A DNA stretch of 64,000 nucleotides. Source: Ignisphaera sp. Lineage in GTDB: Archaea > Thermoproteota > Thermoprotei_A > Sulfolobales > Ignisphaeraceae. Positions within the stretch are counted from its first letter, which is position 1; the number at the start of each line of letters is the position of its first letter. The stretch is from assembly GCA_038889075.1 (NCBI GenBank), contig JAWAHS010000001.1, forward strand, positions 279,764 to 343,763. The letters run 5' to 3'. A program made the position numbers and the translations under genes. Positions 5,843 through 61,868 of this stretch are shown piece by piece. The notes beneath the pieces are model-generated. The model searched no databases and had not been told where the DNA came from. It saw only the letters and a list, made by a program, of their open reading frames with translations.

Positions 5843-6060
5843 CCTTGTGTAACTGTTTCTGATTTTATATCGGTTTATATCGGCTATAGAGCTTAAAACC
5901 GTTTCCACTATCTTCACTATTGAAATATAGTGATGTATTCGATGAGAGTACTAGGGCGCGCCCTTGAACGTCTTTAAGCCCGATGAGAACCCGAGAGAGA
6001 TGCGGGGAAACGATATGAAGCAATGACAAAAACCCGTATAAATCGATGCAAGAGCTGAAA
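5843..6060 (+). mobile_element. Mini-element copy C (degenerate non-autonomous IS607-like/omegaRNA-like element)
   Basis: Starts GCC|TTGTGTAACTGTTTC like copies A and B; contains AAGCCCGATGAGAACCCGAG (identical in copy B), ATGCGGGGAAAC and AGAGCTGAA. Confidence 0.75.
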
Positions 6061-6415
6061 ATCTCAGTCTATATAGTCCAGCTATGCTAAACTCTATCTT
6101 TTTTAAACCTTTCTCCAGCTCCTTCCTTGAAATAGCTACTTCTTTAACATGTTCTCCTCTAATTATACTGCCAAAAAGAATCTCCCTATCTCCGATACAT
6201 ATTCTAACCTCTTTTAGAGGTACATTTGAGCAGTAGCTAATATATATTCTAACCTCTATACTTTCATAGTCAACGGGCCTCTGCTCCACAACATCTATCT
6301 TAAAACATGCTGGATTTTCAAGTACACCAGATACAAACTCTATTAATGGTAGTAGAACCACTATCAGTGAAAATACCGCTACCAACATCAAGGTATATCT
6401 TAGAATTATAAACAA
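5951..6415 (-). CDS. Hypothetical membrane-anchored protein; C-terminus reads into mini-element copy C
   Basis: N-terminal TM helix; the last ~35 codons are the antisense of the inserted element. Confidence 0.65.
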   Translation of the reverse strand: MFIILRYTLMLVAVFSLIVVLLPLIEFVSGVLENPACFKIDVVEQRPVDYESIEVRIYISYCSNVPLKEVRICIGDREILFGSIIRGEHVKEVAISRKELEKGLKKIEFSIAGLYRLRFSALASIYTGFCHCFISFPRISLGFSSGLKTFKGAP

Positions 6416-14997: not shown

Positions 14998-15278
14998 GGG
15001 GTTTAGCTCTGGTATAGGTTTATATTGGTTTCATCGCCTCATCCCTGTTTCCCCTGCATCGGTCTTGGATCTGCATCGCCCTTGGAGGTGTTTAGGGCGA
15101 CCCCGGGCACCCCACATCTTGAGTACCTCGGGGAGAGCCTTCATCGAGAGCATCACAGCGGCTCTCGAACCCCTCATCGAGATGTATCCACGTACCACTA
15201 CGCATAGAGTATTTATAAGCGTTTCTATCAATATCAACCAATGCGAACAGATATGAAAACCAAAACAGTTGTACAAGG
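14998..15278 (-). mobile_element. Mini-element copy A (non-autonomous IS607-like element with promoter and omegaRNA-like scaffold)
   Basis: Reverse complement aligns end to end with 60846-61119, from (CC)TTGTACAACTGTTT through AGAAACGCTTATAAA and CAAGATGTGGGGTGCCCGGGGTC to AGAGCTAAACCCC. Confidence 0.88.
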
Positions 15279-15484
15279 CTATAACGATACCTAATAATAA
15301 GCTGCTAAATGTTGGGAAGGGGTTGTAATACGGCCCTTATCGTAAATGGAGTACTAGTGGTATCGGTGAATTCTATTTGAAGATTGATAAAAATTGAATC
15401 TGAGTATAGCATTGACCCTTACTATGGTAATGATGCGCTGACTCTCTGTGGCAATATTAGAGGGCTTAGAATAGTTGAGGGCCT

Positions 15485-57518: not shown

Positions 57519-58973
57519 CTACACGCCATAGAATTTTCTTAACATTTTCTCAACAGATTCGTATCCCTCATTAGTTACTTCAAGTATTTTTGTCCTATAG
57601 TCTAATTCGGCTTCGATATCATCCTTTAAGAGCCTTCTAGCGAGTCTTTTCATTGTATAGCTATTCATTATCAAATTGGTATCGGGATCGTATATCTCCC
57701 TCCATCCATTATCAATACGTTCATACACTTTCCATACCCTCCGTTCAATTTTATGACCTATTCGTAGTCTTGAGATAAGTATCACGAGAGCGGTATTTAG
57801 TGATAACATATAATACAAATCTTGCGGAAGAAGATTTCTTAAAGCCATTTCATATTCTTCAGATGTTGACGCGTGAAATGTTGTAACAGAACCGGAACCC
57901 GACGCAACAGCTCTAACGAGCGCTGTTATTTCACGTCCTCTAACTTCACCAACTGCTAAAATATCAGGTCTATATCTAAGTGCTGTAAAGCATCTTTGCA
58001 ACATGTCTTCTGAAGTTTCACCGTAGAATTGTAGGAATCTTGACCTCATGGGAAGCTTTATTTCAGGAATATCTTGAACTACGATTATCTTCCAGTTAGG
58101 ATTGCTGAGTTGAAGTACAGCATTCAATAACGTAGTTTTTCCCGAGCCACTTCCACCTATTATTGAATAGAACATTTTCGCATCATTTATAAGCCAAAGT
58201 AGTGCAGCTATTTGCGGTTCTACCACCCCGCTCTTTATTAATTTAATGATATCTATTGGTATGGAGGGGAGTTTTCTTATATTAAATGTCGGACTGTGGC
58301 TAATAGGTTCACCAAGTGTTGCAGCAATCCTATATCCCTCTGGCAGTGCAGCGTGGAGCTCAGGTTTAACTAGTGAAACTGCCTTGCCACTCCTTATAGC
58401 AAGCCTTTCAAGATAGCTTCTAATCTCTTCTTCACTACTAAACTGAATATTTGTAAGCAAAGCTTCATAACTTAGAAAGTCTTTATGGACGACTGTAATT
58501 GGTTTCCGCCAATCAGATAGCTCTATATCTTCTATACCAGGATCCTTTATAATAGGATCCAAGATTCCATAACCGAAGGAATCTCTGGTAATATAGTAAA
58601 GTAAGCTGTTGTAATATTTATGAAGTTCTTCCTCGAACCCAAAGTTATGAGCAATATTCTCGATAGCTTTCTTCAGATCCTCAGCATCATGTATTATAAA
58701 GTAGGATGTATAGAGATAATCCATTATAATACTGTATAGTCTTGATCCAGCTTCATCTAAATGAGGCTCCGTAACAATATACCTAGCGGTTCCATATTTA
58801 TCAACACATATTGTGACAGCGACTTCACCAACATTATAGTTTCTCAGAATCTCTAAGCATAGATCGTTTATATCCTCCATATGTATTCTATGAACATTCT
58901 TTCTAATCAAAAGACCTCCAGTATTGGAACGAGGATCTGTTTTCGTAAAGATATCGAATTTCATAACCCCCAT
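57519..58973 (-). CDS. Type II/IV secretion (VirB11/FlaI-like) ATPase
   Basis: GYGILDP..D..IEDI, FNIRK, Walker A GGSGSGKTT, LRYRPD...VGEVRG and TTFHA motifs. Confidence 0.9.
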   Translation of the reverse strand: MGVMKFDIFTKTDPRSNTGGLLIRKNVHRIHMEDINDLCLEILRNYNVGEVAVTICVDKYGTARYIVTEPHLDEAGSRLYSIIMDYLYTSYFIIHDAEDLKKAIENIAHNFGFEEELHKYYNSLLYYITRDSFGYGILDPIIKDPGIEDIELSDWRKPITVVHKDFLSYEALLTNIQFSSEEEIRSYLERLAIRSGKAVSLVKPELHAALPEGYRIAATLGEPISHSPTFNIRKLPSIPIDIIKLIKSGVVEPQIAALLWLINDAKMFYSIIGGSGSGKTTLLNAVLQLSNPNWKIIVVQDIPEIKLPMRSRFLQFYGETSEDMLQRCFTALRYRPDILAVGEVRGREITALVRAVASGSGSVTTFHASTSEEYEMALRNLLPQDLYYMLSLNTALVILISRLRIGHKIERRVWKVYERIDNGWREIYDPDTNLIMNSYTMKRLARRLLKDDIEAELDYRTKILEVTNEGYESVEKMLRKFYGV

Positions 58974-59012
58974 ATATAGTACTTTAATAAAGGTTACAGT
59001 ATTAGTTATTTA

Positions 59013-59075
59013 TTATCAGCATTTCCGGCTCTCTTCATCGAAAAATACTCAAAAGACCCTCTGATCATCATATGC
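59013..59075 (-). ncRNA. C/D-box guide sRNA directly downstream of tRNA-Gln
   Basis: Minus strand reads ATGATGA-tcagagggtctt-TTGA...TCGATGA-agagagccggaaatg-CTGA. Confidence 0.75.
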
Positions 59076-59088
59076 AACTCTAAATCGT

Positions 59089-59164
59089 TGGTAGCCGGGC
59101 GGGGATTCGAACCCCGGTCACGGGGGCCAAAGCCCCGCATCCTTGGCCGCTAGACGACCCGGCT
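59089..59164 (-). tRNA. tRNA-Gln(TTG), CCA encoded
   Basis: AGCCGGG/CCCGGCT acceptor stem, anticodon loop CT-TTG-GC, GGTTCGAATCC T-loop, ends ACCA. Confidence 0.97.
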
Positions 59165-59249
59165 ACGCTGTAGTTTACAGCAATCTGATACAGCTTATAA
59201 ACATTTATAAATGTTAATGTTCATAATATAATTTCTAGTATCTGACCGA

Positions 59250-60695
59250 TTAGCTAGGAGGACCATCATCTATAATAGCTGGAATACGTAGAAGTACATT
59301 ACATATGAAAGACATACTATTTGCTAAATAGAGTGGGCATTGCATATTGAAATGATGATTCCTAGACCAGACGGAGATCTTAGATGAAGAGTGGTTGCCT
59401 GCGTCGCTTATTTGGGTTTGTTTAGGTGTTTTGAATATCATGGGTATATTCGACACGGGCTTCTCCCTCATCACCTGCTCACCTGTTGCAGGGTCATCGG
59501 GAGCTACATCGACGGACACCACTGGGCCCACCGCGTGGTATATGTATCCCCCGCCTCTGATGGCTACCCAGCCATCATTGAGGCGGGAGAAGAGGTTTAG
59601 GCAAGCTACGTAGTGTGAGTTAAACTCGAATCCGCATTTCTTGCACTCGAATCTGTCACCGTTTCTGTTCTCCTTGTCCACGTACCTGCAGGATGGGCAT
59701 GTTATAGAGGTTTTCTTAGCATCAACTTTAACGACGTTCAAACCTCTCTCGTACGCTTTGTACTCAAGGTTGAATATCATCTTTCTGTATGGAAATGTCT
59801 GAAGCCTGTAGTTTAGCTTCCTACTACCTTTCCTACCGTTCATCTTCATGTCCCTCAGGTTCTCTCTAACAATGTCCGCTTTGTTCACTCTGGTGATTTC
59901 AGCTATAACAGTTGTAACCTTCTTCACTCTATCTTCAACTCTACTCCTCTCTCTAGCACCGAGCTTCTCCAGCAACTTGTTTCTCTCGTAGGTGTTATCC
60001 ACTTTTCTCTGAATAGATCTCCGAATCCTCCTGTAGTTCAATCGTAACCTACTTACGTCGTAGTTTATCGTGAAGAGTACAGCTCTACCTTTCTCATAGT
60101 CTACGAGGAGGCATGCCATGTTGTCCTCGTTGATATCGATCACCAGCTTATTCCTGTGCTCAAACACTTCAACATTCTTTCTGATGGTTAGGAGAATATA
60201 TAGGGCATCCCTATCTACGATGATCTTCGAGTTAGAGACTTTAGCATTACTGAGCTCTCTCAACGCATGGTCATAAACCAGCATGATAAACTTAGCGTAC
60301 TCACCACTACCAATAGATAACCTGAGGATCTTGGAGCTGTTTTCTTCCTCGATTCTGAACGTATCGATGTGTAGATCAACCACTCTGTTTGCATCAACGC
60401 TTGGCGGTGAAGGTGAATTCCCTCGCTTATACTTCATCCACTTTCCTAGAAGCTTCCTGTAGCTCCTGTACACTACGAGAGCTCTCTTGTAGGCTTCTTC
60501 AACATACTTGTTGTGGAGATGCGGATACCTTTCTCTAAGATACCTGTAGCAGAGCTCGTGAGCCTTCTTCCTGCTCCTCACATTGTTTTTAACTACTATG
60601 TTCAAAGCATCCATGAGAATGTTTGTGTAATCGCTTAGCAAGCTGTGTACAAGAACCTTATCTCTCTTGGAGAGTGGTACAAGCTTAATCTTCAA
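59250..60695 (-). CDS. tnpB: TnpB-family RNA-guided protein; ORF reads through the element end
   Basis: RuvC-I VIDINE, RuvC-II IVRENL, LEYKA...TSITCPSC...FECKKCG; RuvC-III reads NSHYVACLNL. Confidence 0.9.
   Translation of the reverse strand: MKIKLVPLSKRDKVLVHSLLSDYTNILMDALNIVVKNNVRSRKKAHELCYRYLRERYPHLHNKYVEEAYKRALVVYRSYRKLLGKWMKYKRGNSPSPPSVDANRVVDLHIDTFRIEEENSSKILRLSIGSGEYAKFIMLVYDHALRELSNAKVSNSKIIVDRDALYILLTIRKNVEVFEHRNKLVIDINEDNMACLLVDYEKGRAVLFTINYDVSRLRLNYRRIRRSIQRKVDNTYERNKLLEKLGARERSRVEDRVKKVTTVIAEITRVNKADIVRENLRDMKMNGRKGSRKLNYRLQTFPYRKMIFNLEYKAYERGLNVVKVDAKKTSITCPSCRYVDKENRNGDRFECKKCGFEFNSHYVACLNLFSRLNDGWVAIRGGGYIYHAVGPVVSVDVAPDDPATGEQVMREKPVSNIPMIFKTPKQTQISDAGNHSSSKISVWSRNHHFNMQCPLYLANSMSFICNVLLRIPAIIDDGPPS
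59348..59402 (+). ncRNA. C/D-box sRNA candidate (tRNA D-loop guide); D box appears damaged at the IS607 right end
   Basis: C ATGATGA (59352), guide TCCTAGACCAG complementary to tRNA-Gly 2192-2202, D' CGGA, C' TAGATGA; D position reads CTGC. Confidence 0.6.
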
Positions 60696-61317
60696 AGTCT
60701 TCTGAATAGTCTTGGTAGCCGTTTCCCACCACCTCTTCTATGGTGTTTTTTTATCTTCCTAAACTTCTGGGATCGCTTACCGTATATCCTGGCGGCGAAC
60801 GATGTTACTATCGCAACGAAGTCCTCCACTAGTTCATCCATGTAGCCTTGTGAAGCTGTTTCGTTTTTCATATTTGTTCGTATCGGTTGATAATGATAGA
60901 AACATTTATAAACACCTTATACACTAATATGCGTGAAGGTACCTCGATGAGGGATCGAGAGCCCTCGGCAAGGGCTCTCCCCGAGACACAGCAAGATGTG
61001 GGGTGCCCGGGGTCACCCTGAACGCCCCTAAGCCCGATGAGAACCCGAGCGGAATGCAGGGGAACAAGAGATGAGGCGATGACATCAACCAACAAAAACC
61101 CACATCAGAGCTGAACCCCCTTCTCGCTCTCCTCTACAACCTCTACTCTAACACCGTGCGACTCGAAGAACCGAGCGAGGTACTCGAAGCCAAACCTGGT
61201 CAACCTATCGCGGAACTCTACAACCACAACACTTATCTCGTGTTTAACCGCCATATCGAGGAGTTTCTGTAAACCACTACGCTTCTCATTCAAACCACTC
61301 GCAACATCTGTTACAAT
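60686..61317 (-). pseudogene. tnpA: IS607 TnpA serine recombinase: 5'-truncated, interrupted by mini-element B, frameshifted
   Basis: IVTDVASGLNEKR..VVEFRDRLTRFGFEYL..EESEK | GYMDELVEDFVAIVTSFAARIYGKRS; apparent extra A in an A7 run near 60750. Confidence 0.9.
60846..61119 (+). mobile_element. Mini-element copy B (non-autonomous IS607-like element with promoter and omegaRNA-like scaffold)
   Basis: Removing 60848-61119 exactly restores tnpA codons AAG|GGC TAC; CC at both junctions; homologous to copies A and C. Confidence 0.92.
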
Positions 61318-61355
61318 CCCGAAAGCCTCGTCCTTTAGGGCGGGGAGGAGGTCAG
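61315..61355 (+). mobile_element. Solo IS200/IS605-type end hairpin (PATE-like)
   Basis: TTAC|AATCCCG-AAAG-CCTCGTCC-TTTA-GGGCGGGG-AGGAGG-TCAG, the IS605/IS608-type end architecture. Confidence 0.75.
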
Positions 61356-61379
61356 TTAATTTCTCTGGTTAAACTTTCA

Positions 61380-61868
61380 TTATTCAGAGATTCTTAAAGT
61401 CTTTAAATACTCTATTAAACCCCCAGCTTTTAAGATATCAAGAGCCATTCCCGCTATACCTTTACATTTAATTACTTTATCATCTACTATGACCTCACCA
61501 CTTTCGATATTGATTTTAATTGTATCATTTTCATTGACTTCCTTAGTTATATTGGGACATACTATAACAGGAAGTCCATTATTTATAGCGTTTCTATAGA
61601 ATATCCTCGCAAAGGATTCTGCTAAGATAGCCTTAATACCTGCAGCTTTAATTGCTATAGCAGCTTGCTCTCTTGAAGAACCCATGCCAAATACCTTACC
61701 AGCTACTATAATAGCTCCCTTTGCCTTTCTATGAAATTCAGGATCTATAGGTTCGAATACATGCTGGGCTAGATATTCTGGATCCGTATACTTGAGATGT
61801 TTAGCTGGGATGATAATATCTGTGTCTATTTTGTCACCAAGCTTAATTACACGTCCTTCTATAATCAT
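61380..61868 (-). CDS. leuD: 3-isopropylmalate dehydratase/homoaconitase small subunit
   Basis: [32 protein letters not shown] and GGL motifs. Confidence 0.9.

What the first reader, a model, noticed from the sequence alone, without database searches (positions are those of the whole stretch)
60842..61140. Mini-element inserted inside another IS607's transposase: predicted guide targets intact tnpA
Seen: deleting 60848-61119 perfectly restores tnpA (..GAG AAG|GGC TAC ATG GAT.., E-K-G-Y-M-D). The sequence just 3' of the scaffold is CTTCTCGCTCTCCTCTACAAC, which is tnpA DNA, and the left flank is TAGCC. The scaffold differs from the 3' tail of the neighbouring tnpB, so two different element families are involved. 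Inference: the omegaRNA from B would direct its cognate TnpB to any uninterrupted copy of this tnpA (motif and target are contiguous there). That could drive homing into sibling elements or suppress them, an RNA-guided conflict between transposons that could benefit the host.
Basis: partly seen in the sequence, partly recalled or inferred. Interest (0 to 1): 0.85.

Follow-up and report, generated by a model that had tools for sequence, protein, structure and literature searches.

The report
Guide-RNA mini-transposon nested in transposase gene
A 272-base mobile element with no protein gene but a TnpB guide-RNA cassette sits inside an already dead IS607 transposase gene of a hot-spring archaeon; its guide matches that gene simply because of where it landed, so this is a clean but largely ordinary example.

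Summary
Window 60848-61119 is a real, scarless 272-bp insertion in a serine-recombinase (IS607-type) tnpA. Removing it restores the frame. Uninterrupted alleles with the flanks contiguous exist in a congener, in 13 public contigs and in hot-spring metagenomes.

The insert belongs to a MITE family with about 10 copies in this genome. Each copy has a left end, the tnpB promoter, a 5' tnpB remnant, an omegaRNA-like scaffold and a right end. B's scaffold is 116/128 identical to the 3' end of an intact tnpB-only element on contig C9. The family is IS607-like, not IS605-like: the genome has no Y1 transposase, the left flank is GCC in 19 of 23 elements, and the right end is ...ACCCC.

That the guide matches tnpA follows automatically from the insertion site; this is the known "restorative homing" design. 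I found no evidence of an ongoing conflict. The host tnpA is also 5'-truncated and frameshifted. The genome holds no target. The insert occurs at this site only in this genome. A relative with a perfect target and the same element families is unoccupied. Interest is modest.

The parts
60848..61119 (+). Mini-element B: a 272-bp non-autonomous IS607-type MITE (equally 60846-61117 because of the CC ambiguity). GC is 50% against 38% for the window.
   Evidence: Natural empty sites.
60848..60900 (+). Left end (TTGTGAAGCTGTTTCG..TTTCATAT..). Carries the LE signature shared with the MITEs, the C9 tnpB-only element and the C5 IS607. Presumed TnpA-binding region (inference).
60905..60912 (+). TATA-box-like TTTATAAA. 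It corresponds to the box upstream of the leaderless tnpB start in the C9 element and is the presumed promoter of the B RNA (inference from sequence).
   Evidence: sequence comparison by eye.
60940..60991 (+). Remnant of the first ~20 codons of tnpB, including the hairpin GAGAGCCC..GGGCTCTC (60957-60979). The internal-deletion junction lies at about 60991/60992.
60992..61119 (+). OmegaRNA-like scaffold and right end (..CAGAGCTGAACCCC). 116/128 identical to the tnpB 3' end plus RE on contig C9.
61120..61143 (+). Predicted guide template (CTTCTCGCTCTCCTCTACAACCTC). It is tnpA DNA, and the RNA would be antisense to tnpA mRNA.
   Evidence: Identical in 5 of 13 public intact alleles.
60845..60847 (+). 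Left-flank GCC, the TAM-like motif. Its CC is the presumed crossover core.
   Evidence: GCC in 19 of 23 credible LE flanks of the genome.
61120..61314 (-). tnpA fragment (Resolvase positions 28-101, about residues 83-147 of the intact ortholog). It is 5'-truncated at 61314.
60692..60847 (-). tnpA C-terminal fragment, with a 1-nt frameshift in the T-run near 60746.
   Evidence: table 4.
59391..60722 (-). Neighbouring IS607 tnpB. Homology to the G013 element ends at 59391, which marks the right end. Its RuvC-III position reads H instead of D.

Best explanation
B is a non-autonomous member of an archaeal IS607-type family of tnpB elements. It is an internal-deletion derivative that keeps the left end, the tnpB promoter and first codons, the omegaRNA scaffold and the right end.

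It most likely entered as a double-stranded circle, by serine-recombinase (TnpA) crossover at a CC dinucleotide (target GCC|C), into the tnpA gene of an IS607 of a different subfamily. This step is inferred.

If transcribed from its own TATA box, it would give a ~190-nt scaffold RNA that reads out into the flank. Its guide is therefore the empty-site sequence, which here happens to be tnpA. A C9-type TnpB encoded elsewhere in the genome could use that RNA in trans. Transcription and loading are also inferred.

The match between guide and tnpA is an automatic by-product of the insertion site (the restorative-homing design), not an evolved weapon. In this genome it has no target. The host IS607 is a triple-dead relic, and no intact TnpA is present, so the whole family is currently immobile here.
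For: - Scarless insertion and natural empty sites.
- Family membership: 17 BLAST matches in the genome, about 10 of them carrying both ends and the same deletion architecture. A further 12 near-full copies lie in G026.
- Scaffold 116/128 identical to the 3' end of the C9 tnpB. C9 TnpB hits PF07282 and solved TnpB/Cas12f chains, and it keeps D186, E280 and D-x-x-A-x-x-N.
- Structure: 95.3% of cells paired against 90.3% in shuffles (0 of 500 shuffles reach it). The covariation score is 0.216 against 0.130, and all slid controls are 0.086 or lower. The structure was derived from the same alignment.
- IS607-type, not IS605-type: 0 PF01797 hits in a 99.6%-complete genome. The only transposase candidates are 2 Resolvase loci. 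The C5 IS607 shares the LE signature and a ..AAACCCC right end.
- Left flank GCC in 19 of 23, and right end ..ACCCC. This parallels the TGGG TAM against the TCGG scaffold end in a bacterial IS607, where position -3 discriminates (passages).
- Generic design: PATEs often encode omegaRNAs used in trans (passages). Restorative homing is also reported for IS607 (passages).
- Both tnpA loci of the genome are interrupted.
Against: - No direct evidence that B is transcribed. The metatranscriptome contigs over the scaffold are 90-95% relatives and could be DNA carry-over.
- B's LE differs from the family consensus at 2 positions, and B is only 72-77% identical to the other full MITEs. It may be an old, inert copy.
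- The consensus fold is weak (-7.3 kcal/mol). The single-sequence fold is not better than shuffles (z=-1.28).
- There is no Rfam match on the insert at E<=1.
- The core is CC with a GCC flank on the tnpB-sense strand, unlike the GG/TGGG of characterised bacterial IS607. Mobilisation by a serine TnpA is inferred, not shown.
- Two of two tnpA loci in this genome carry nested elements, more than a naive uniform-target expectation. Some targeting or local-hopping bias is therefore not excluded.
Confidence: 0.8

Rival explanations
1. One reading: B RNA plus the C9-type TnpB form an active RNA-guided system that cuts any intact copy of this IS607 tnpA. A chromosomal copy would be converted to the B-bearing allele by homing. 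A copy arriving on a plasmid or other incoming DNA would be destroyed. B would then be a hyperparasite or accidental 'spacer' that keeps this IS607 subfamily extinct in the lineage.
For: - All parts are present in one genome: B, an intact C9 TnpB and a GCC flank.
- Intact alleles identical over GCC plus 24 nt exist in related archaea: 5 of 13 public empty sites, with complete 218-219-aa TnpA ORFs in L062, L068 and L069.
- They co-occur in the same metagenomes as this strain's allele.
- The genome holds no intact copy of this tnpA.
- B belongs to a different element lineage from its host, so it does not destroy its own transposase supply.
- Restorative homing by TnpB is established for IS605 and reported for IS607.
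Against: - There is no evidence of spread. The B-in-tnpA arrangement is seen once, in 1 of 26 family genomes plus 3 further genomes.
- G026 has the perfect target and the same families, but the site is empty.
- The congener's site differences are synonymous and at background rate.
- The host IS607 is dead for two independent reasons, so its absence needs no RNA-guided explanation.
- Expression and cleavage are untested.
- Nested IS insertions are common because they are neutral (general knowledge).
Confidence: 0.12
2. B is an IS200/IS605-type PATE, moved as single-stranded DNA by a Y1 (HUH) TnpA that inserts 3' of a TAGCC tetra- or pentanucleotide.
For: - Most tnpB-only elements described belong to IS200/IS605.
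- There is no TSD, and the element sits 3' of a short conserved flank motif.
Against: - 0 PF01797 matches in a 99.6%-complete genome, while the control genomes ring.
- Only positions -3 to -1 (GCC) are conserved, and the motif is GC-rich rather than AT-rich.
- The same CC occurs at the LE junction and the RE terminus, as for a serine-recombinase core.
- The LE signature is shared with an element that encodes a Resolvase-type TnpA.
Confidence: 0.04
3. B is not a transposed MITE. It is the in-situ remnant of a full-length tnpB element that lost its interior after inserting into tnpA.
For: - B's 3' half is much closer to the full-length C9 element (91%) than to the other MITEs (72-80%).
Against: - B has the same architecture and the same deletion junction (..CTCTCCCCGAG | ..CAAGATGTGGGG) as at least 8 other protein-less copies in this genome, and more in G026.
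- B's 5' half, with its TATA box and hairpin, resembles the MITEs rather than the C9 left region, which holds a 47-aa ORF absent from B.
Confidence: 0.06

Closest known systems
IS607-family elements with TnpB/omegaRNA and serine-recombinase TnpA (e.g. the Clostridium botulinum IStron 'mini-IS'; bioRxiv 10.1101/2023.11.20.567912, passages read; review PMC13565253, passages read)
   Same: - Scarless excision and insertion with no TIR or TSD.
- An identical core dinucleotide at the LE junction and the RE terminus.
- The TAM abuts the LE and the guide abuts the RE, so the RNA matches the donor joint.
- The scaffold's last bases resemble the TAM except at position -3 (here GCC against CCC; there TGGG against TCGG).
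- A protein-less mini element can be moved in trans.
   Different: - The core is CC and the flank GCC on the tnpB-sense strand, instead of GG/TGGG.
- The host is a hyperthermophilic archaeon.
- B is a natural, multi-copy MITE family with its own promoter, not a laboratory construct.
- Its TnpA partner (C5-type) is itself broken in this genome.
- None of the activities has been tested.
PATE-like non-autonomous IS200/IS605 elements that encode omegaRNAs used in trans (Meers et al. preprint PMC10055086, passages read)
   Same: - Protein-less elements bounded by LE and RE.
- They keep the omegaRNA and depend on TnpA and TnpB encoded elsewhere.
   Different: - Those are moved by a Y1 HUH transposase as ssDNA, with AT-rich TAMs and terminal hairpins.
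- This genome has no Y1 gene, and the ends look like serine-recombinase ends.
SMN1, a 320-bp MITE of Sulfolobus islandicus mobilised by the ISC1733 transposase (stated in PMC3718332, passages read; the primary paper, Berkner & Lipps 2007, is not held)
   Same: - A crenarchaeal non-autonomous element of similar size that depends on a transposase in trans.
   Different: - I could not see SMN1's sequence or ISC1733's family assignment. That ISC1733 is IS605/IS607-like is my recollection only.
- No guide-RNA content was described there, as far as I could read.
Homing endonuclease genes and group I intron homing (review PMC13565253)
   Same: - The hypothetical behaviour is the same: cut the insert-free allele, repair from the insert-bearing allele.
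   Different: - Recognition here would be RNA-guided, and the nuclease would be encoded by a different element.
- No sign of such spread was found.

Membership tests
IS607-family non-autonomous element | Scarless insertion without terminal inverted repeats or target-site duplication, with a precise empty site | tested here: met
   a 272-nt skip in X2, X6 and X20; 13 empty sites. Only a 2-nt CC ambiguity remains.
IS607-family non-autonomous element | Same core dinucleotide at the LE junction and at the RE terminus | tested here: met
   CC precedes the LE (22 of 25 at -2 and 23 of 25 at -1). The RE ends ..ACCCC in most copies.
IS607-family non-autonomous element | Ends homologous to an autonomous element that encodes a serine-recombinase TnpA | tested here: met
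   The C5 element (HTH plus Resolvase TnpA) has the LE GCC|TCACGCAACTGTTTCGGGTTTCATAT and an RE ending ..AAACCCC. Scaffold similarity to B is only marginal (85/136 against a shuffle maximum of 82).
IS607-family non-autonomous element | GG core and G-rich TAM on the tnpB-sense strand, as in characterised bacterial IS607 | tested here: not met
   Here the motif is GCC/CC. Bacterial elements use GG, TGGG, AGGAG or GAGGG. This is why I call it IS607-type rather than canonical IS607.
IS607-family non-autonomous element | Excision and integration by a serine TnpA in trans | not testable with these tools
   Needs an excision assay. No intact TnpA exists in this genome.
TnpB omegaRNA cassette | Scaffold derived from the 3' end of tnpB and running to the right end, with the guide taken from the flank | tested here: met
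   116/128 identity to the C9 tnpB 3' end plus RE. The flank differs in every copy.
TnpB omegaRNA cassette | Cognate TnpB with intact RuvC D-E-D available in the same genome | tested here: met
   C9 ORF of 399 aa: PF07282 at E=1.8e-15, PDB TnpB/Cas12f hits, and D186, E280 and DVVACIN.
TnpB omegaRNA cassette | Conserved secondary structure supported by covariation | tested here: inconclusive
   17 pairs, 5 of them with compensatory changes. The covariation score is 0.216 against 0.130 in shuffles. However, the fold energy is weak, the structure came from the same alignment, and the sequences are related.
TnpB omegaRNA cassette | Match to a curated RNA family | tested here: not met
   No Rfam hit on 60848-61119 at E<=1.
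TnpB omegaRNA cassette | Transcribed, bound by TnpB, and directing TAM-dependent cleavage | not testable with these tools
   Only metatranscriptome contigs of 90-95% relatives were seen.
IS200/IS605 PATE | Y1 (HUH) TnpA present to mobilise it | tested here: not met
   0 PF01797 matches in a 99.58%-complete genome, while the controls ring.
IS200/IS605 PATE | AT-rich 4-5-nt TAM 5' of the left end | tested here: not met
   Only GCC is conserved.
Homing / gene-drive element acting on IS607 copies | The same insert at the same site in several copies or genomes, or depletion of matching intact alleles | tested here: not met
   There is a single occurrence. 5 of 13 public intact alleles match perfectly.

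The most novel reading that the evidence does not exclude
B is a functional hyperparasite. It is a protein-less guide-RNA element that borrows one IS family's TnpA to move and a second element's TnpB to cut. Having landed in the transposase gene of a rival IS607 subfamily, it now programmes that TnpB against every intact copy of the rival. Copies within the chromosome would be converted (homing), and copies arriving by gene transfer would be destroyed. B would thus work as an accidental, heritable 'spacer' that keeps the autonomous element extinct in this lineage.

Three results allow this reading: the perfect 24-nt plus GCC match to intact alleles circulating in the same hot-spring communities, the absence of any intact copy in this genome, and a second tnpA disrupted by another TnpB-like element.
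Probability: 0.1. Interest if true: 0.7.

Novelty: new member of a known kind. Interest (0 to 1): 0.33.

Why it matters
The locus gives an unusually well-documented natural example of a guide-RNA-only transposon derivative. The occupied site, the natural empty sites, the donor-type TnpB and the likely transposase family are all identifiable.

It extends the IS607/TnpB logic to a hyperthermophilic archaeal lineage that uses a CC core and a GCC flank.

It also offers a ready-made test pair, because intact alleles with a perfect match exist in nature. That pair could test whether omegaRNAs of protein-less elements are used in trans, and whether such elements can drive themselves through, or exclude, other transposons.

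As it stands, nothing requires more than a neutral nested insertion.

Tried and rejected
- **Rfam.** The scan of 58900-61500 at E<=1 gave nothing on the insert. It gave only a tRNA, weak C/D-box hits and a sub-threshold HgcC hit at 61258-61365 (29 bits against a gathering score of 50).
- **Single-sequence fold.** The fold of B RNA is not better than shuffles (z=-1.28).
- **Target in own genome.** The search for the empty-site motif found 0 hits with up to 2 mismatches. The 3 hits at 3 mismatches are B's own right junction and two unrelated sites.
- **IS605/Y1 reading.** Rejected.
- **Seed-mutation idea.** The congener's two differences are synonymous third-position changes and are expected from background divergence.
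- **Survey of tnpA copies in the genus.** Of 30 loci, several overlapping, 9 are contiguous and near full length (L031-L034, L041-L044, L048). L047 and L053 are each matched as one contiguous stretch that starts at query residue 26 or 31. Several others are frameshifted or fragmentary. Nested LE/RE motifs inside tnpA occur only in the two loci of this genome. Fragments whose other half lies beyond the 1.5-kb flank could hide insertions.
- **Left end of the host-type IS607.** I tried to define it from a syntenic empty site. Only the rpl3 flank aligned, so there was no result.
- **Sequencing runs.** X1 covers 60876-61600 identically, but its contig starts inside the LE, so it says nothing about the left junction. 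Parts without cover in any run are not evidence. X20 is an RNA library, but its contigs are 90-95% relatives. I do not count it as expression of B.
- **Literature.** Searches for a described case of an omegaRNA-bearing MITE nested in a tnpA, or of RNA-guided conflict between transposons, returned only the IStron intron/guide-RNA conflict paper and general TnpB papers. Supplementary files were not opened and may list such elements.

Full report
**Observation**

The window is G000:C1:279764-343763. On the minus strand, 59250-61314 holds the remains of an IS607-type element. It consists of a Resolvase-type tnpA (PF00239, E=1e-10 for 61120-61353) followed by a tnpB (PF07282, E=2.8e-15).

The 272 bases at 60848-61119 interrupt tnpA. 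Joining 60847 to 61120 restores one open frame. An intact ortholog in congener G013 reads the same peptide..VVEESEKGYMDELVEDF.., inside a 217-aa TnpA with HTH and YARVSS (L020 ORF 1009..1662). The G013 DNA aligns to the two window flanks at 92% and 93% identity with the flanks abutting.

The junction is ambiguous by the dinucleotide CC. The insert has 50% GC against 38% for the window.

Independent empty sites:
- Contigs of two hot-spring metagenomes and one metatranscriptome skip exactly 272 nt, 60845 to 61118 (X2 1 contig; X6 3 contigs with 71 nt on the shorter side; X20 1 contig, plus 2 contigs with the cut drawn 3 nt further). These contigs are about 90% like the window, so they come from relatives.
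- Thirteen public contigs contain the contiguous site.

**State of the host gene**

The host tnpA is dead three times over.
- It carries the insert.
- Homology to the ortholog stops at 61314, so TnpA residues 1-82 are gone.
- An extra T near 60746 shifts the C-terminal frame (table 4).

**What the insert is**

BLAST of the insert against the genome gives 17 matches. About ten have both ends and the same architecture, including window 15003-15283 (minus strand) and a degenerate copy at about window 5845-6065.

The architecture is:
- a left end, TTGTGCAACTGTTTCG..TTTCATAT..;
- a TATA-like box;
- the first ~20 codons of tnpB, with a GAGAGC..GCTCTC hairpin;
- directly after that, the last ~128 nt of a tnpB element, ending ..CAGAGCTGAACCCC.

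Matches restricted to the 3' half lie at the ends of full tnpB genes on C9 (399-aa ORF) and at the end of C1.

B's 128-nt scaffold is 116/128 identical to the C9 copy. Its similarity to the neighbouring tnpB's tail is at shuffle level (78/142; shuffles mean 71, maximum 85).

C9 TnpB is related to solved TnpB/Cas12f structures (best 8hr5_A, E=3.9e-10). It keeps the RuvC residues D186, E280 and D in DVVACIN.

An alignment of 20 scaffolds from 11 genomes shows modest structural support:
- 17 consensus pairs, 5 with compensatory changes;
- 95.3% of cells paired against 90.3% in shuffles;
- covariation score 0.216 against 0.130 (0 of 500 shuffles reach it);
- slid controls 0.086 or lower.

Three caveats apply. 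The structure was derived from the same alignment, the rows are related, and the fold energy is weak. Rfam has no match on the insert.

**Which transposition system**

The genome is 99.58% complete and has no Y1 transposase (0 PF01797 hits; controls positive). It has only two Resolvase loci, the window and C5.

The C5 element has an HTH-Resolvase TnpA and a 447-aa TnpB. It carries the same LE signature, GCC|TCACGCAACTGTTTCGGGTTTCATAT, and an RE ending ..AAACCCC.

Of 25 LE-signature hits in the genome, 23 are credible. Their left flanks read GCC (19), ACC (2), CGC (1) and CAC (1). Positions -4 to -6 are not conserved. The conserved motif is therefore GCC, not TAGCC.

The same CC stands before the LE and at the tip of the RE. 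This is the pattern of a serine-recombinase core dinucleotide, as shown for a bacterial IS607 (GG core, TGGG TAM, scaffold ending TCGG, discrimination at position -3, passages). Here the corresponding trio is a CC core, a GCC flank and a CCC scaffold end.

I therefore file B as an IS607-type non-autonomous element of an archaeal lineage with a different core. It is not canonical IS607 and not an IS605 PATE.

The G013-type host IS607 shows no LE-signature match upstream of its tnpA. Its TnpA is only 39% identical to the C5 TnpA. So B sits in the transposase gene of a subfamily other than the one whose ends it shares.

**How it most likely works**

Shown: the anatomy, the family, the empty sites and the availability of a matching TnpB.

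Inferred:
1. Entry by TnpA-mediated crossover at CC.
2. Transcription from the retained TATA box (60905-60912), giving a ~190-nt scaffold RNA that reads into the flank.
3. Use of that RNA by C9 TnpB in trans.
4. Recognition of GCC followed by CTTCTCGCTCTCC.. .

Because the guide is whatever lies 3' of the RE, every copy is programmed against its own empty site. This is the published restorative-homing design. Protein-less elements with omegaRNAs used in trans have already been noted for IS605. That B's guide equals tnpA is thus a by-product of where it landed.

**Test of the conflict hypothesis**

Evidence that leaves it possible:
- Among the 13 public intact alleles, 5 are identical to B's flank motif plus 24 nt of guide (L062, L068, L069, L070, L073).
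- L062, L068 and L069 carry complete 218-219-aa TnpA ORFs. L070 and L073 are cut by the ends of their contigs.
- Of the other alleles, 3 differ at guide position 7, 1 (L061, the G013 record) also has TAACC, and 4 differ at positions 16 and 19.
- Such alleles occur in the same metagenomes as exact matches to this strain.
- This genome has no intact copy and no target (0 hits at up to 2 mismatches).

Evidence against:
- The B-in-tnpA arrangement is found in this genome only, among 26 genomes of the family and 3 more reached through loci.
- G026 has a perfect target, 12 near-full MITEs and two 92%-identical C9-type scaffolds, yet the site is empty.
- The congener's two site differences are synonymous and expected (P=0.61 for 2 or more differences in 26 nt at 7.7% divergence).
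- The host element's extinction is explained by truncation and frameshift.

No call shows transcription or cleavage. I put the active-conflict reading at about 0.1.

**A point in favour of some bias**

The other tnpA of the genome (C5) is also split, after ..RLTRFG. The interrupting element is 1324 bp and carries a 376-aa ORF in reverse orientation. The ORF has RuvC-like motifs but no zinc ribbon and no Pfam hit. This element's predicted guide would again be tnpA sequence.

Two of two tnpA loci hit is more than a uniform target model predicts. But insertions in dead or selfish DNA are the ones that survive, and other tnpA copies in the genus are mostly contiguous.

**Comparison and novelty**

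The closest knowns are:
- IS607 elements with TnpB/omegaRNA;
- PATE-like omegaRNA carriers of IS605;
- the Sulfolobus MITE SMN1. Its primary paper is not held, and its family assignment is my recollection.

B is a new member of this kind, in an archaeal lineage with a CC/GCC variant of the end rules. My searches found no description of an omegaRNA-bearing MITE nested in a tnpA. Supplementary files were not seen.

**Verdict**

Interest is modest, at 0.33.

Noticed in passing
L018 (G000:C5:37800-41800); nested element at G000:C5:39785-41108: The genome's only other IS607 tnpA is also interrupted, after ..RLTRFG. The interrupting element is 1324 bp and holds a reverse-oriented 376-aa ORF with TnpB-like RuvC motifs, no zinc ribbon and no Pfam hit. 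Short derivatives (5' ~150 nt plus 3' ~75 nt) lie at C2:274208-273986 and C8:3277-3052.
   Followed up: partly
window 59250-60695 (-); L020:1619-2929; L018:480-1820 (-): The TnpBs linked to a tnpA lack the RuvC-III aspartate of the D-x-x-A-x-x-N motif: H in the window and G013 copies, Q in the C5 copy. The tnpB-only C9 protein keeps it. They may be nuclease-dead or rearranged.
   Followed up: partly
window 61311-61356: A 45-nt GC-rich repeat sits exactly where tnpA homology stops. This genome has 2 full copies. Other genomes of the genus have dozens of ~90% copies, and depth in the metagenomes is very high, with loose ends on both sides. In one X1 contig, a + and a - copy lie about 130 nt apart. 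A sub-threshold Rfam HgcC hit overlaps it (61258-61365, 29 bits). Its nature is unexplained.
   Followed up: partly
L005:2809-2952 (+), inside the left region of the C9 tnpB element: A 47-aa ORF lies divergent from tnpB. It is conserved at 83-96% at C22, at the end of C1 and at C14, has no Pfam hit, and is absent from the MITEs.
   Followed up: partly
window 15003-15283 (-) and about 5845-6065 (+): Two further copies of the same MITE family lie in the window: one full copy (left flank ATAGCC) and one degenerate copy (left flank CTGCC).
   Followed up: yes
window 60848-61119 compared with other copies: B looks chimeric. Its 5' half resembles the MITEs. Its 3' half is 91% like the full-length C9 element but only 72-80% like the other MITE scaffolds. 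This suggests gene conversion between MITE and tnpB elements, or an independent sub-lineage.
   Followed up: no
G000:C1:387228-387376: A solitary 149-nt copy (85% identity) of the right-end scaffold of the host-type IS607, away from any tnpB match in this search.
   Followed up: no
G026 (genome of L062): This genome holds 12 near-full copies of the MITE family and 10 partial scaffold copies, beside one intact IS607 of the host type. The family is much more abundant there.
   Followed up: no
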